From Octopus vulgaris (taxonomy: Eukaryota): a DNA stretch of 64,000 nucleotides. Shown piece after piece: positions 2,157 through 64,000 of this stretch (the first letter of the stretch is position 1; every line of letters begins with the position of its first letter). The stretch lies in assembly GCA_951406725.2 (NCBI GenBank), contig OX597814.1, positions 162,130,001 to 162,194,000 of the forward strand. Direction: 5' to 3'. The position numbers were made by a program, and so were the translations under genes. The notes under the pieces are model-generated. The model had not been told where the DNA came from. It saw only the letters and a program-made list of their open reading frames with translations, and searched no databases.

Positions 2157-2305
2157 CTGGGTGTCAATATATGTTTCTATCTTTGGTTCTACAGCTAATT
2201 CAGCTTCTAAGATTCGTTCAACAGGCATATCAACATTTGCACTGCTGGTGCTCTCTACTTCGCCTTCTCCTTTTTCTTTCACACGTTGACGTTCTTCTTG
2301 AACAG
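2157..2305 (-). CDS. RXR: RXR coding exon: rest of the T-box, hinge and LBD helix 1
   Basis: (A)[49 protein letters not shown]. Acceptor cttttgtctttttgcag, donor CAG|gtaagt; 149 nt. Phase 1 joins the 62234-62391 exon as G|CT = Ala. Confidence 0.97.
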
Positions 2306-35755: not shown

Positions 35756-38709
35756 CAAAAGTGCATACACATAAAAAATTATTAATAGGTGCAAGAGCAG
35801 ATTTTAGTCAAATCAATCACAGTTACAGGTTGAACTGATTTGTCCCAACAAATATTGTTCAAAATTGCATCAGGTACAAAAAAGTAAATGCTTCAATGGT
35901 TGAAACAACTGACAAAGTGGCTGGTATCATAGTTCTCAACCCACATCAAATTTATTTCATAGCTGATTATATCCTTTCTAAGAAGTAGCTTTCCAGGCAG
36001 TGCTGAGATTCAATGTTGTTGCTTTGTACATGCAAAAAGTAGCTAGTAAATCAAAGTTGGCTGCAACTACCAGACTAGATTTTAGGCAATTATCTAGACG
36101 GATTAGTCTAGTTTTTAATGAGAATATAATGAATATATTTACGAATTTTTGAAACCCAACAAAAGAAAAACAAAATAGCTATAAATTTGCTTTTAAAAAC
36201 ATTACTTCATTAATAAAGTTTAAAACAGGAAATATCTAATAAGGCATTAATAAATCAATGGCAAAACTTCGTAATGGTGGGGTGGGAGAACACTGCAATT
36301 CATTATGCATACCCTATTCTAGAAATATCAGAACATTACTAGGTCTTCAATGTAAACTGAAGTTGAGGTGCATTCTTTTTTCTCTCAGTGAGTTGGTATG
36401 GAAAAAAAAAAAAAAAAAAAGAAAAAGAAAAAGAAAAAAAAAAGCAATTATTCAAAATTATTAAGTATCAGAGTACTAACAAAATGTATATCAACTATAT
36501 CGCTATAGTAGAGAGGTTAGTACATCCTAAAGTTAAATTTATAACTGAATTTTCCTTATGTAGGAAAACACTGGTAGAAGATTCAGAATCAAATACAAAA
36601 ACTTATTTATGTTCACAGAGAATAGAAAATTAATCCTCATCATAATTTATAGTCTGCTGGTATGGGTTGGGCAGTTTGATAAGCTCTGGTATTTGCTTTA
36701 GCATGGTTTCTATGGCTAGATGTAAATAATTAGCAAGGAAGCAGTACCTAGGCAAGATAAAATTTTCCAGTTTAAATTGCAAAACTTTTAACTTTCTTAT
36801 TAAATCATTAATGCATTTCTTCAATAGATATATTCCTTTGTAATTTCAATTAAAAACATGGTACCTTATATACCAGATATCTTTCTCTTCACTATATACA
36901 TCACAGAAGGCTTAATTTAAAATAAAAATATTTTCTTAGGAACTTTTGACACTGAATTGCTTAAGATAATGTCAAGAGTGTGTTTTGGGACACCATTCCT
37001 AAACTAGTAACCACAACTGCAAATATATTAAAGACATTGCTGCATTAAGAATAACAAAAAGGTTTGATACTTTACAAATCAATAGAATGCATTATGAATT
37101 CGGATGCATAGGATTTCAAAAGTAAAATGTTTAATCTCCAGTTCATTCCTGACTGATCAGACTTTATAGTCAAATACACTGTTGCTATAATTTACTGTCT
37201 TCGTTTCATGTTTGTTTGTGTTTTTTCTGGCGGGGGGTGGGGTGGGGTGGCTATTTTACGCTGTGTATCTAAAACTAGACTTTTTAATGTGGCAATATTT
37301 TTCTTTTCTTTTAAAAAACTATGGTGTGACTTGACAAAATAAAAATGGTTACCAAATAAATATACCGAGGATTCTCATTGTTAGCTCACCAACACAAATA
37401 GGCAAATAGAAATAATGCTAATAAAAATATAGATTAAATAGTTACAATGTGTCTTAGTATCTACAATACCTACAATGACGCAGCTCTAATATACATTTTC
37501 TCAATATTGTAAAAACTTAAAGCAATACATTAAAAAAGTTGGAAACTTTAAACAGACAAACCCTACTATTCTCTCACTGGAAAAAAAAAAAAAAAACTGA
37601 ACAGTTCAGGTAATTTACTATTCAACAAAATAAACAATGGTACACAATTTTGCAATACTATTTTCATAACTAGCTAATTCAATATTTTGTTTATTAGTTT
37701 TTGTTTTTTTTTAATTGTTAACTTCTAGTTGAATTGTTTATATTAAACCCCTTTAAGAAAAAAAAAGGTTTACGAAGTATTTAATTGAAAATATAATATT
37801 AGTTTTTCCCATGGATCAGTTTAACAACAGTATCTCCGGAAGTATAAAGGCACATTCAATACATTAAGAATTTAGAAGATCTCCTACTGCCATCATCTAG
37901 CTTACTGTATAGTTTGAAACAATTTCTAAAATGTTATAGAATTAGAAAAATTTGTAAATGTTTGCATTTCCATAATTACAAAGAAATGTAGATTTTATTT
38001 TTGCATTCACAGGAATTTTATTCAAAGGTGAAAAAAAAAAAAAAAGAAAAACCCGTTCAGTGCCATTGTTTAATTTGAGAGGTTGACAGCATGTTACATA
38101 CTAAGAATAAAAACAATTGAAGAAAGAATTCATTGTTTATGAATACATTTTTATGAAGAAACAGGAATATGCTTATGTGCGAAGATTCATAAAGAATATT
38201 AAGAGCAATATGTTACATGAGAAAAAAAAAATTTTTAGGAGAGAAGATAAAAGAAAAAACTCTCAACACCGTAACACCGAGTTTTCTCTAATGAACTCTT
38301 GTCTTATTTACATGTCTCTTGTCACCATCACAATATGCTTCCATCAGATGACAAGTCAGCAAAATGAAATACTGCTATTAATTAAAGATCAATTTTATCT
38401 GAATGAAGTGAAATCATGTAAGTATAAATAAATGTATGCCCACTCTAATGCACATATGCATCAAGTGAAAGTATGGGCATATGTGCACATACGTATTTTA
38501 CCAGCTGCATGTATCTGTACATGTGTGTGTACTTGTGCACATCTGTATGTATGGCAGTTATGATATAAAGCAAATGGCAAGTAAGTGATAAGATGAATAA
38601 ATGCAACTAGATACTAGTTTAATGGTTCAAGCAGTCTTATCAGCAGATGAATTGAGGTTGACTCAGCACTAAGAAATTAATGAATGATTTACAATATTAA
38701 GGGGCCTAC

Positions 38710-38745
38710 CTTTAAAGTCTCGTTCTTTCCCCTGTCTTGACACAT
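38710..38745 (-). CDS. RXR: Candidate alternative RXR T-box micro-exon (36 nt, inserts DVSRQGKERDFK)
   Basis: Long T-tract + aaaag|ATGTGTCAAGACAGGGGAAAGAACGAGACTTTAAAG|gtaggc. Symmetric phase 1-1, no stop, purine-rich. Branch-like ttctgat upstream. Confidence 0.5.
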
Positions 38746-41377
38746 CTTTTAAAAAAAAAAATAAAAAATATATATTATAATCAGAAAGTTACTAATCTTC
38801 TGATCCCTTAAAAGAAAATAAGGGTTTCTTCCATCTCAAATATTTTAACACAGATTCAAATTAATCTGTAATAAAATGGAAGCTCGTAAGTGTTTAACAA
38901 AGTCTAAATTGTGCCAAAATATTGGACGGTTGTGTAAGAGGCTTGGCCTGAAATCAACGGAAAAAAGGGAAAATAAAAATGAAGTAAAATAAACAAAATG
39001 GGAAAAATTATATATTTTAGTTTCAGTATTAAAATTAAATAATATAGAACATGACCAAGCCAATCTATGTATATATATGTATAAAATAAATATATACATA
39101 CATAAACTAGGACTGCTAAATGATAAGTGCAGTTTATAGTCAAGCTGGGTGTGAGGGGTAAGGAACAAGAAATGTTTGAAGCAATAATAGCGTGTTGTGT
39201 AGTTTCATTCAAGCCACAGCAGATTCGTCAAAGCTAAGAGGTTAGCTTAAGGCAAAGTCACAAGGACAACTAGTTGCAATAGTTTAAATACAGAAGTTTT
39301 AGGATAATTAAAAAGGGAGGGAGAAAATGACACCTAAACGAAGCTAAACATTACTACTTTTAGTTTTAGTAGAAAAAATTAGAATGGATGTATTAAACTT
39401 AAATGCTAAAGGTAATCTTAAATTTTTTTTTTAAATTTAGTTTTTTTTAAAATTAAAATTTTATTAGATAAATGAAAAATAATTTTAAAAAATAAAAAAA
39501 AACCTGCCGGTTACAATTTACATCTAATGTATAACCAAATATGCTTTTGAGTCACTAAGCACAATTTTCATAGCCTGGAAAAACTATAAAGAGTGGAATA
39601 TCATGGATAAAAAATAAATAATTTGAAATTTCTTTTTTTCCAACTAGTTATTAAATATAAAGAAATGAATAGTACATGCTGGAATAACAAATAGTTGGGA
39701 TATGGGTGAAAAGGCACATGCCATGTCTTCCCGAAAACAAAAAGAATGGTACTGTGATGGTGCCAGTGACTGGTGTTTATAGGTAGTACCTACAAATTAT
39801 TATTGGTGAGAGAGATTAGAAAAATAGAAGGCAGTGAATGGAGAAGAATTATTATAAACAAGAAATTATAATAGATTAATGGCTGTATTTGTTTGTAGTA
39901 TGTGTTTCACTCATGACTAAAGGATATCATCAAATGTGCTGTTAAGTGTTTAAGAAAAGGACTAGGCAGGTTTTGAAATGTTCCCCACATTTTAAATTTG
40001 TAAGGGATAAAAAGATAGAAAATAATAAAAAAATGTTAATCTGTTTCTTTTTTCATCATTAAAGATTACAGATTAAATATATACAAGATACATTTTATTT
40101 TCTAAATGCAAAAAAGTAAAAAAAGAAGAAAAAAAACGAGTAATTATAGCTCTAGTATTGATCTGTAGTTTAAAAGAATTTCATAAACGCAGAAGACACA
40201 CGCACGTGTGTAGGAACACAAATAAACATATAAAATAAAATACTGCAGCATAAATTTGTTTTCAAGAAATTCTGTCAATGCATGTAGGTGTCTGAGTGTA
40301 TGTGTAATCAATCATCTGATAACCTTTAGATTCCCAATCATGGCTAAGCTTCCAGTTCTTTAAACTTTGCAAATTTTGCAGTTTCTGATCATTAAATACA
40401 TGAACTCCCATATACCTACCATCACCACCACCAGAAAAAAAAAAGTAATGCACATAAAAATGAAGAGAAAATTTTAAAATCCTTTTAAAATCTTCCCTAT
40501 TAGTTTAGCAGCCATCACACACAAACACTTATTACTGAAGGACAGAAGAGAAAATAAGGAAAAAAAATTTAAAAGAAAATCTGCTTTCAAGACACATTTT
40601 TCCGAGTCCTTTTAGGAAATCTGATATTGTAAGTACTCAGTGACAGTGCAATTATCTAAAGACAGAATCATTTTCCAACCAAGAAAATTATGCAAGCTGT
40701 TTATATCTAATAACATTTAATTATTTGCCAAGAAAATATACACATAAGACACATACATCTATGTGCTACTCCCTTACATGAAATATCAAAATATTTGTAG
40801 TATTAAATGAACATGAAAAAACCTGCAAGTAATCGGTGTGTGTATGTATATTTGATAGTCTGTGTATGTGTGTGTGTGTGTAAAACAATGTGTTTATGTG
40901 CTAGTATATAGGCGTATAGATCTGTGTGAATGTGTAGGATAAGGTATGGTTATGTATTCAAGAAACTTAGCTCCCCGACAAGTTTCAGGTTAAGTCTCAC
41001 TATCGCAGGTGTCTACTATAGCCCCAGGTTGATTAAAGCCTTGTGAAGGAATTTGATCAATAGAAAATGAAAGAAGCCCATTATGTGTATTCTTAAAAAT
41101 GATGTGATTGTTGTAAACAAGGCATCCAAGCTGGGCCATTTGTCTCCAATCAGCCATGGGAAAATACAGCCTTCCTTGAGACAAGGGCAGATTGGACAGA
41201 GGAAGGGCATCTAACCATAGAAAATCTATTTACTAAGAATTTTATCTGACCCATGCAAGCAAGTTAAGCAGGAATTAAAACGACACTATGTATACAAATG
41301 ATATAAATGCATGCCTGTGTTATTCGTATATACACATATATATATATATATATTTATACACACACACACACATATAC

Positions 41378-61171: not shown

Positions 61172-62233
61172 AGAACATAAAAAGTTCTGGTTTGACTACT
61201 ATTTAAAAAAAAAAAACTCTAGGAGAGGTAACTTTCTATCAGAGATATGTGTGTTGATATGAGACAACATTCAGAAAGGAAATGGTTTAACTATACAAAA
61301 ATACCCCTTAAGTACATTAAGCTTATTTTCCAAAACTCTCATAATCCATAAAGTAATTTAAAGCTTAATTCAGAAAAGTTATCCAAAAGATATTTTTGAA
61401 GTATTGGGGCACTGGTTTAAACATTTGCTAAACTACATCCATCAATTTTTAATGAAATTTTTCATAACTTTCATCAAAAATATAAGTTTTAAGAAATAAA
61501 AACTCACAGACTAGTGTAATGAATTAACTAGAAAACACATACTCTAAATGTAAAACCAAAATAAACATACGAATAAACATTAAACTAACTGAAGAATACT
61601 ACCTATTTCAGCCAGAATAACAATCATATGTTTCTAAACATCACAATAGAAAAAGGAAAGCTCACACAAATCTCACAAACAAATAGTTTTTCCTTTTAAC
61701 ATGAATTGCAGATTTTTTAATCTAAAAAATTATATTTCCTTTGTACAAATTTTAATAAAAAATAAAGTAAATAGATAATTAGTAAAGAGATGTAGTGTTA
61801 TGTGTCATTAATGGTGAAGATTTTAGCAAGATGTAGGTCAGTGTTCTAGTTATAGAATATGAGTGTCACCAGACTAGCATGGGAGCAGCACAAGGAAAGG
61901 CAGCAGGAAACAACTTAATGAAGCATGTTTTTAATATACATATTTCACAAAGTTATTTCATAATGAAAATGGTTCAGTACCAACACAACACTTTAAAACA
62001 TGTAACAGTAATTGTTACTTTTTAGTTTTCAGAATTAGTGTTAATATATATAATAAAATTTAATAATTACCAAAATTTACTCCTGAAACGAAAATGTACA
62101 AATTAAGCTTAAAATTTTAATGTATGGTAAGAGTTTCTATTCACCCAAGTGTTGTGTCAATACAAATACAAATGCCAGCACTAGTTCTACCATCACACCA
62201 TTGAGCTGTGCAGATGAAAAATTGCAAACTCAC

Positions 62234-62391
62234 CTTCTCGTTTCATTCCCATAGCCAAACATTTCATATAACGACAATACTGACATCGATTTCTTTGCCG
62301 TTTGTCAATGATACAGTTTCTGTCATCACGGCAAGCATAAGTAAGGTCTTTCCGCACAGTTCTCTTGAAGAACCCTTTACAGCCTTCACAA
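62234..62391 (-). CDS. RXR: RXR coding exon: P-box, second zinc finger and start of the T-box of the DNA-binding domain
   Basis: Manual translation gives (S)[52 protein letters not shown](A), a typical RXR/USP DBD. Acceptor ttttctctctaatag, donor GAAG|gtgagt; 158 nt, phase 2 in, phase 1 out. Not shown in this frame by the ORF track. Confidence 0.97.
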
Positions 62392-64000
62392 CTATTAGAG
62401 AGAAAATAAAATCAAAAATTAAATACATGATTCGACATTCTTTCAGATGAAAAATAATGAACATTTTAATTTCTATTAAAAGGCCATTGCAACACATTGC
62501 AGGGATAAAGGAAACTGTTGAATGTTTTTCTTAATTAAACTTTAAAATATTTTTAAATACTATAAAGTTAACATGAAAAGTATTTCAGAACAAACCAAGG
62601 TTAAATTTAAAATCTAGTTCCATAAATGCAATATATTGAGCACTGATATAATTTAATCCTTCCCCTCAAATTACATTGATGAATATTGTCAGCATTGAGT
62701 TTAAAATTATTCCTAACATTAGTTTCCAATGCAAAAATATTACATAAAAATATTAAATCACAAAAGAAAAACAAATCTTTTCAATTTCTTACAAATCTGA
62801 TACAAGATAATTTATCCATTATAGGAAAACACGCACAAACAAAAGTTGTCTATATTAAGCCAGTCACTCCAACCTTCTTCCATTCAATAGCTCATAATTA
62901 TTCAATTGTAATCTTTGTATACCGTTATTGTTCCACATTTAGCTAAATGAAATCTGATAATAGTTTTTCTTTTCTCAAACAAAAACTGATTCAGAAGAGT
63001 TTATACAAAATAACCCAAATCAGAACACTGAACTTTACAAATGAGCTGACTCAAGGTACATGAAAGAGATGAGATACTGAACACATGAACGTTGCTTAAT
63101 CTTTTCTTGACGTCAGAAACTAAATATGATGATATAGTATCATATCAAGCCAAATGAAGTGATAAATTTCTACTCTTAATTTGTATTCCCCTCTCTATAA
63201 TTCAACTTTTATGCCATTCACTAATTTTATTCAATCAAATTTGTTTATCTGACAATAGTACTTTGTTTATGTTTGCAATATTACCAAATAAAATGTTAGC
63301 TCTTTCAGTCTATGATGTGTGCTTTCAAATTTGCTTTGTGATCTCACAGTGAACATGAATTTAGCTATCTTTCTAGTCAATGATTTAATTTTAAAAACTT
63401 TCTTTTGAAATCAATTGCAATTTCTATAAGGTCACCAATCTTCAAAACCATAAGACATGGATCTCTACAGAGAAATCGAATGTCTTCATATATATTGCTT
63501 GTTTCTGGTACTTTGTTCTCCATTTTCATATTCTATTCTTTATTGCAATACAGGTGGAGTTAGTTCAACTAATCAGTACAGGATAGATGTGTGAGAACTT
63601 TCAAAGCAGCCCCCCTCCCCCATATCTGTCTGCTTATGGACACTTTTCATATTTTTGAAACATCTCCACATTAGTTATTTTAATTGAAGTGACCTGTGTT
63701 AACAATGGTAAAACTAGTGTTGGCATTATAGGAGCATCAAAAAGTTAACTGGAAAAACAACATGCTAACATTCTCTTTATGACTCTTAAACTGCTTTCAG
63801 TTTTGTTTTCTCTAGTTTTACAGTCTAGTTGATTTTAATGTGTATTTATCCCAAGCTGTCAGTAAATAGACAAGTCTACAATGCATTTCAATGTTATTTC
63901 ATCTGATTTATAGAAAGCTTAATTTCTTTCCTTTATTTAACTTTGTTTTTGGTTCAGATACCTTACTTCTTAGCCCTTTCATGACCATATTTCCATTGAA

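What the first reader, a model, noticed from the sequence alone, without database searches (positions are those of the whole stretch)
38710..38745. Hidden 36-nt micro-exon that would insert 12 aa into the RXR T-box
Seen: in the middle of the 60 kb intron, the minus strand reads T-tract-aaaag|ATGTGTCAAGACAGGGGAAAGAACGAGACTTTAAAG|gtaggc. It is phase 1-1 and stop-free, giving [24 protein letters not shown], a charged peptide. About six YCAY motifs lie in the ~130 nt downstream. Established: the T-box contributes to DNA-dependent dimerisation and spacer recognition, and T-box insertion isoforms are reported in gastropod, bivalve and crustacean RXRs. Inference: a regulated, possibly neural (Nova-type), isoform that retunes response-element or partner choice. 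The AAG acceptor is weak.
Basis: partly seen in the sequence, partly recalled or inferred. Interest (0 to 1): 0.75.

Follow-up and report, generated by a model that had tools for sequence, protein, structure and literature searches.

The report
Octopus RXR T-box swap exon
A 36-base exon deep in an octopus retinoid X receptor intron is real, is spliced into transcripts and is already in database gene models; it puts 12 conserved residues into the receptor's DNA-dependent pairing surface and likely weakens one mode of DNA binding, a known kind of variation in mollusc RXRs that may here be the common form rather than a rare one.

Summary
The exon is real. Both predicted junctions stand in assembled contigs: 62234 to 38745 in 4 of 4 runs and 38710 to 2305 in 4 of 4 runs, six runs of six studies in all. 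It is not hidden: DVSRQGKERDFK is in 9 of 15 listed Octopus vulgaris, O. sinensis and O. bimaculoides isoform records, and skipped forms exist. A near-identical insert (11/12) occurs in unnamed cephalopod proteins that probably lie outside Octopus plus Argonauta, while the gene's other optional exon keeps 7/16. No skipping contig was laid, so inclusion is likely the major form. In register the insert replaces Q206/E207/R209/Q210 by S/R/G/K, the residues that human RXR uses for DR1 dimer and minor-groove contacts, so weaker DR1 cooperativity is predicted but untested. YCAY enrichment is modest (p 0.006-0.024); neural or Nova control is unshown.

The parts
62234..62391 (-). RXR exon for the second part of the DNA-binding domain, ending MKRE plus 1 nt (phase 1 donor GTGAGT)
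   Evidence: covered by contigs in 4 of 4 runs
   Evidence: in 5 listed O. sinensis isoform records (P0006, P0123, P0125, P0130, P0132); not seen in the 4 runs
38746..38768 (-). polypyrimidine (T) tract and AAG acceptor of the 36-nt exon; no other AG for about 45 nt upstream; no UGC motif within 150 nt upstream
38710..38745 (-). 36-nt cassette exon, phase 1-1, DVSRQGKERDFK, 72% purine
   Evidence: junction contigs; database isoforms
38704..38709 (-). donor GTAGGC
   Evidence: loose end at 38710 continues into the 2305 exon in 4 of 4 runs
38560..38687 (-). YCAY-rich downstream intron (8 motifs), possible Nova-type enhancer, untested
2157..2305 (-). RXR exon starting AVQEERQR (canonical T-box, hinge, start of the ligand-binding domain)

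Best explanation
This is a conserved, alternatively spliced 36-nt cassette exon of the single octopus RXR gene, likely included in most transcripts, whose 12 residues take the place of the T-box next to the zinc-finger core and are predicted to weaken RXR's cooperative binding when it sits on the 3' half-site of DR1 elements. Shown: exon, both junctions, existence of skipped forms, conservation. Inferred: the insert keeps the valine at position 205 but puts S, R, G, K at 206, 207, 209, 210 (human numbering) and moves the native QEERQ 12 residues out. Human E207 and Q210 of the 3' subunit bond to R182 and R186 of the 5' subunit, both kept in octopus, so R207 and K210 would repel them, and G209 would lose the minor-groove contact. 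[quoted passage not shown] Skipping would restore the canonical DR1-competent receptor, making the exon a splice switch on response-element choice.
For: Junctions in contigs of six runs from six studies; in X4 and X13 one contig carries both junctions (record positions 2204-2237 then 2240-2401 of 3609 nt; 254-287 then 290-451 of 1082 nt). Inclusion in 9 and absence in 6 of 15 listed Octopus records (29 in the cluster). In the unnamed lineage both forms occur: inclusion proteins P0004, P0005, P0009, P0135-P0138 stand on 65 contigs, skipping proteins P0008 and P0010 on 2. Insert 11/12 identical against 7/16 and 6/17 for the optional ligand-domain exon (Fisher p 0.011 for 11/12 vs 7/16). One RXR locus in G000. 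Contact residues from PMC4314640 (passages), register from the alignment to human RXR-alpha. A 5-residue T-box insert lowers activity of snail TcRXR-2 (as cited in PMC3774650, and PMC5398557; original not read).
Against: No binding or reporter data for any cephalopod RXR were found. Contigs drop rare variants and give no inclusion level, so 'major form' is an inference from unbroken contigs and from how bubble-removing assemblers behave (recalled). Runs are only guessed to be RNA and have no tissue label; they were found with an upstream exon, not chosen at random. The 65 against 2 contig count comes from the best 120 of 982 hits and their clusters. The insert could loop out and let the native QEERQ re-dock. 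Both AlphaFold models were too poor to judge (mean pLDDT 45.8 and 52.0).
Confidence: 0.55

Rival explanations
1. Neural, Nova-driven minor isoform: Nova binds the downstream YCAY motifs and promotes inclusion mainly in neurons.
For: 8 YCAY in 150 nt downstream, p 0.006 against shuffles; none of the nine other flanks tested is enriched (p 0.12 or more). In Ciona, Nova acts through YCAY-rich elements 3' of Agrin micro-exons (PMC12445529, passages). The atypical AAG acceptor suits regulated inclusion.
Against: Inclusion in all six runs of six studies, with no skipping contig in the 4 runs laid on the upstream exon, fits broad inclusion better, unless all samples are nerve-rich. Motifs are loosely spaced. 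No upstream UGC of the neural micro-exon programme (motif recalled). That Nova is not neuron-restricted outside chordates is recalled; the paper was not held. Nova could still act here without neural specificity.
Confidence: 0.2
2. Loop-out spacer: the 12 residues bulge out, the native AVQEERQR re-docks, DNA binding changes little, and the conserved insert serves another job (longer hinge, nuclear import, modification or a cofactor site).
For: The canonical T-box is fully retained after the insert. If inclusion is the major form, a loss of DR1 binding would be costly. Inserts at this site in other animals vary widely in length and sequence: 75 distinct inserts among 231 scorable of 293 proteins (set enriched for inserts, and some are doubtful gene models).
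Against: The second residue is V, I, L or M in 20 of 20 hand-picked inserts (not independent), which suggests that the insert start, not the displaced copy, packs where V205 does. Snail TcRXR-2 loses activity with only 5 residues (cited).
Confidence: 0.22
3. Gain of function: the basic insert (4 K/R, 3 D/E) forms a new C-terminal extension that reads the minor groove or lengthens the reach, giving a new preferred spacing or monomer binding.
For: 11/12 conservation suggests specific contacts. An R-Q-G stretch follows the valine in octopus and also occurs in the amphioxus and oyster inserts; an R-x-G element in the extensions of monomer-binding receptors is recalled, not tested.
Against: Similarity to the amphioxus and oyster inserts is not significant once the first two residues are fixed (p 0.49 and 0.19). 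Net charge is only +1. No structural support.
Confidence: 0.18
4. Chance pseudo-exon or splicing noise.
For: Loose-threshold candidates are as common on the antisense strand as on the sense strand (12 vs 11); AAG acceptor.
Against: Both junctions in contigs of six studies, annotation in three species, 11/12 conservation.
Confidence: 0.01

Closest known systems
Scallop CfRXRb/c/d T(+4), T(+20), T(+24) isoforms (PMC3774650, passages read)
   Same: Same intron within KRE|AVQEER, a cassette exon (60 nt) plus a second small option that combine into four isoforms; all four detected in all tissues examined.
   Different: Unrelated Ser-rich sequence; the +4 option is an alternative acceptor on the downstream exon, whereas the octopus +4 is a separate 12-nt exon near the upstream donor.
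Oyster CgRXR-2, 13-residue T-box insert (PMC5398557, passages read; P0157)
   Same: Same site, similar length, starts DV and contains RQG; authors suggest impaired homodimer formation.
   Different: No significant alignment to the octopus insert beyond the first two residues (p 0.19).
Gastropod TcRXR-2 / NlRXR-b 5-residue T-box inserts (cited in PMC3774650 and PMC5398557; originals not read)
   Same: Same site; the only functional data seen: lower transcriptional activity.
   Different: Short hydrophobic insert (ACLSS, P0037), not a charged 12-residue one.
Octopus database isoforms (e.g. CAI9716265.1, CAI9716263.1, XP_052827768.1, XP_029641196.1)
   Same: Identical 12-residue insert; automated models.
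   Different: No paper describing them was found in searches.
Amphioxus RXR 12-residue insert DVQDQRQGSGNS (P0214, three Branchiostoma species) and teleost RXR-beta VVQDERQR (P0257)
   Same: Same position in the T-box; amphioxus insert has the same length, and one record shows a second upstream insert (P0304).
   Different: These resemble duplicated T-boxes in register (p 0.003 and 0.0003); the octopus insert does not (p 0.38).
Crab SpRXR2 5-residue T-box insert (PMC4806290, passages read)
   Same: T-box insert plus a separate optional insert in the ligand-binding domain, as in octopus.
   Different: Crustacean inserts lie between Q and E per PMC3774650, a different position.

Membership tests
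RXR (NR2B) | C4 zinc-finger DNA-binding domain with CEGCKG P-box and KREAVQEER T-box, plus RXR-type ligand-binding domain | tested here: met
   Pfam zf-C4 and Hormone_recep; best solved match human RXR-alpha E 3e-181; exons 96-99% identical to P0128
Molluscan RXR T-box insertion isoforms | In-frame insert at the KRE|AVQEER junction | tested here: met
   site described in PMC3774650
Molluscan RXR T-box insertion isoforms | Made by alternative splicing of one gene, both forms existing | tested here: met
   one locus; inclusion and skipping records; skipping itself not seen in the runs laid
Molluscan RXR T-box insertion isoforms | Altered DR1 binding or transactivation | not testable with these tools
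   needs binding or reporter assays; folds uninformative
Homologue of bivalve or amphioxus T-box exons | Sequence similarity beyond chance | tested here: not met
   with the first two residues fixed, 17 of 18 non-orthologous inserts give p above 0.18 and shark gives 0.04 uncorrected
Duplicated-T-box exons (amphioxus, phoronid, teleost RXR-beta type) | In-register similarity to AVQEERQR | tested here: not met
   2/12 identical, p 0.38; DNA similarity to the neighbouring exons p 0.87 and 0.34
Nova-enhanced exon | YCAY cluster in the downstream intron | tested here: inconclusive
   8 in 150 nt, p 0.006, but at most 4 per 45 nt
Nova-enhanced exon | Neural-biased, Nova-dependent inclusion | not testable with these tools
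   runs lack tissue labels and are contigs
Srrm3/4 (eMIC) neural micro-exons | UGC just upstream of the 3' splice site and length of 27 nt or less (criteria recalled) | tested here: not met
   36 nt; 0 TGC in 150 nt upstream

The most novel reading that the evidence does not exclude
Coleoid cephalopods have inverted the default: their main RXR carries a charge-reversed replacement T-box that disables 3'-position DR1 complexes (RXR homodimer, PPAR-RXR, RAR-RXR on DR1) or gives a new DNA specificity, and the canonical receptor is produced only by regulated skipping. With the 12-nt exon and the 48-nt ligand-domain exon this gives a combinatorial splice code on the universal nuclear-receptor partner, at an intron that has gained T-box exons repeatedly across bilaterians.
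Probability: 0.25. Interest if true: 0.62.

Novelty: new member of a known kind. Interest (0 to 1): 0.33.

Why it matters
RXR is the shared partner of many nuclear receptors and the organotin target in molluscs. If most cephalopod RXR carries an altered T-box, assays and models built on the canonical form would misjudge which DNA elements and partners it uses. The function of invertebrate T-box isoforms is stated to be unclear (PMC4806290), and a conserved natural pair differing by 12 residues makes that question directly testable. The existence of the exon is not news: it is in public gene models.

Tried and rejected
AlphaFold on full-length P0121 (38 rows) and on its DNA-binding region (76 rows): mean pLDDT 45.8 and 52.0; the second drew a helix through the insert at pLDDT under 50; neither was used, and no fold search was run. 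Search for shorter proteins with the insert: 23 candidates, none at E 0.1 or better. No listed run is on record as RNA: no RNA holder listed; the spliced joints over 23 kb and 36 kb are what mark these contigs as transcript-derived. Origin by duplication of a neighbouring exon: rejected. Deep homology with oyster or amphioxus exons: not supported. A stronger-looking CAG acceptor at 38948 would give a 238-nt out-of-frame exon; no contig covered it in 4 runs, which proves nothing. My splice scan missed the real 12-nt exon (14 pyrimidines, donor score -0.6), so further tiny exons cannot be excluded. Other octopus receptors' C-terminal extensions could not be compared because most have an intron at the same place. 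Flank conservation in other cephalopod genomes could not be tested: none is held. No complex was folded, since the interface depends on DNA. The Nova-evolution paper was not held (one search empty). Supplements of bioRxiv 10.64898/2026.09.05.749416, which analyses tissue-specific splicing in O. bimaculoides (passages; 'RXR' 0 hits in the main text), were not seen and may list this exon's tissue pattern.

Full report
Observation. Placed between the exon ending at 62234 and the exon starting at 2305 it keeps the frame and gives [24 protein letters not shown]. A scan of the 59,928-nt intron with a generic, recalled donor matrix ranked it first of 82 in-frame candidates; at its own score there is 1 sense and 0 antisense candidate, while loose thresholds give 12 and 11. 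The gene is the single RXR of an Octopus genome, spanning C1:162116456-162205409 on the minus strand, with Pfam zf-C4 and Hormone_recep domains.

It is spliced. Of 24 runs listed (none on record as RNA, no tissue labels, all contigs), I laid six. On 38450-39050, 4 of 4 runs (X4, X13, X5, X6) gave a contig covering 38710-38743 with no other letters and a loose end at 38710 equal to the first 30 nt of the downstream exon; 38744-38780 was skipped as a repeat. On 61950-62450, 4 of 4 runs (X4, X13, X19, X10) gave one contig whose loose end at 62234 equals the first 30 nt of the micro-exon. In X4 and X13 the same record carries both joints. The six runs belong to six studies and five organism labels. 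No contig with the direct 62234-2305 join or with the 12-nt exon was laid. Contigs show presence, not absence or level; but unbroken contigs of 1.1-3.6 kb through the exon are what an assembler leaves when the other path is rare (assembler behaviour recalled), so inclusion is likely the major form in these samples.

It is already in databases. A search with the downstream exon found 982 proteins, best 120 listed. In the Octopus cluster (29 members, 15 listed), 9 carry the insert (O. vulgaris CAI9716265.1, CAI9716263.1; O. bimaculoides XP_052827768.1, XP_052827775.1; O. sinensis XP_029641195.1...196.1...199.1...201.1...202.1) and 6 do not. Five O. sinensis records carry a further GVNF, which maps to a 12-nt AG/GT-flanked segment at 62082-62071. 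A third optional exon of 48 nt in the ligand-binding domain lies just outside the window at C1:162121761-162121808. The single Argonauta record lacks the insert, which says nothing about its genome.

It is conserved. Seven unnamed assembly-derived proteins carry DVSRQGKERDYK and two of the same lineage skip it. A tree of the hinge and ligand-binding domain (22 rows; two short rows left out) puts them in a cephalopod clade (100/100) and, weakly (93/72 against 87/78), outside Octopus plus Argonauta; squid or cuttlefish is my inference. Against P0135 the insert keeps 11/12, the DNA-binding domain 71/72, the hinge exon 50/50, the A/B region 103/118 and the optional ligand-domain exon only 7/16. 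This points to selection on the peptide.

Mechanism. In human RXR-alpha on DR1 the T-box of the 3' subunit meets the second zinc region of the 5' subunit, with Glu207-Arg182 and Gln210-Arg186 bonds, and Arg209 and Gln206 contact the minor groove; RXR also uses its T-box in RAR-RXR and PPAR-RXR on DR1 (PMC4314640, passages). By the alignment the insert falls between E203 and A204, so positions 204-210 read D, V, S, R, Q, G, K, with R182 and R186 retained. I infer charge repulsion and loss of the minor-groove arginine, hence weaker 3'-position DR1 cooperativity, with P-box, D-box and ligand pocket unchanged. The kept valine fits a wider pattern: V, I, L or M at position 2 in 20 of 20 hand-picked inserts and V, I, L, M or C in 55 of 75 distinct inserts (not independent, enriched). 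The only functional precedent seen is lower activity of snail TcRXR-2, known to me through citations. Against: no assay exists for this insert, looping out is possible, and both folds failed.

Regulation. YCAY is enriched downstream (6 in 130 nt, p 0.024; 8 in 150 nt, p 0.006) and in none of nine other flanks, and Nova acts from such 3' elements in Ciona (PMC12445529, passages). But the motifs are loosely spaced, the upstream UGC of neural micro-exons (recalled) is absent, and inclusion in all six runs is easier to explain by broad inclusion. Neural specificity remains untested.

Comparison. T-box insertion isoforms are published for scallop (+4, +20, +24; PMC3774650), oyster (+13; PMC5398557), two snails (+5; cited there) and crab (+5; PMC4806290); I read passages of these three papers. 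A 2025 review inventory records RXR studies in bivalves, gastropods and chitons, not cephalopods (PMC12965858, passages). Searches returned no paper on a cephalopod RXR T-box isoform; most subscription papers are not in the library. The same site carries inserts in mussels, ark clam, venus clam, brachiopod, phoronid, nemertean, amphioxus, acorn worm, sharks, teleosts and tetrapods. Four of the 20 tested look like duplicated T-boxes (amphioxus, phoronid, teleost RXR-beta, P0041; p 0.003 or less), but the octopus one does not and has no shown homologue outside cephalopods. It works like the known molluscan T-box isoforms and meets the testable membership features.

Verdict. Real, conserved, annotated, and a new member of a known kind. 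What adds interest is the likely predominance of the inserted form, the strong conservation, the second micro-exon and a specific testable contact-residue prediction. Interest 0.33.

Noticed in passing
window 62071-62082 (-): Second optional 12-nt T-box exon (GVNF), 151 nt after the upstream donor; in 5 listed O. sinensis records, alone or with the 36-nt exon.
   Followed up: partly
L014:1761-1808 (-) = G000:C1:162121761-162121808: Optional 48-nt exon (VSDGCSTLEKAGNTDD) early in the ligand-binding domain, phase 0; diverged but present in the unnamed cephalopod proteins; parallels the crab ligand-domain insert.
   Followed up: partly
L016:781-9750 (+) = G000:C6:40512781-40521751, and L017: One 2990-residue open frame with 9 nuclear-receptor zf-C4 domains and 4 more such domains in short frames downstream. 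Earlier notes e1-8663334 and e1-9548908 appear to describe this gene.
   Followed up: partly
P0214, P0211, P0257, P0041: Amphioxus, phoronid, teleost RXR-beta and one unnamed RXR carry inserts that are in-register near-duplicates of the T-box, suggesting repeated evolution of an alternative T-box; no paper found in one search.
   Followed up: partly
P0290, P0277, P0283, P0249, P0215: Reptile and amphibian RXR-alpha models share a 19-residue insert, and shark models a 7-residue insert, at the same junction.
   Followed up: no
window 38948 (-): Strong-looking pyrimidine tract and CAG about 200 nt upstream of the used AAG acceptor; would give a 238-nt out-of-frame exon; no contig cover in 4 runs.
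   Followed up: partly
window 38450-38664: One low-depth (3.6) intronic contig in X4 with two differing letters; pre-mRNA, DNA or an allele.
   Followed up: no
P0006, P0124, P0127, P0121: Octopus RXR records have at least four different N-termini, implying alternative first exons upstream of the window.
   Followed up: no
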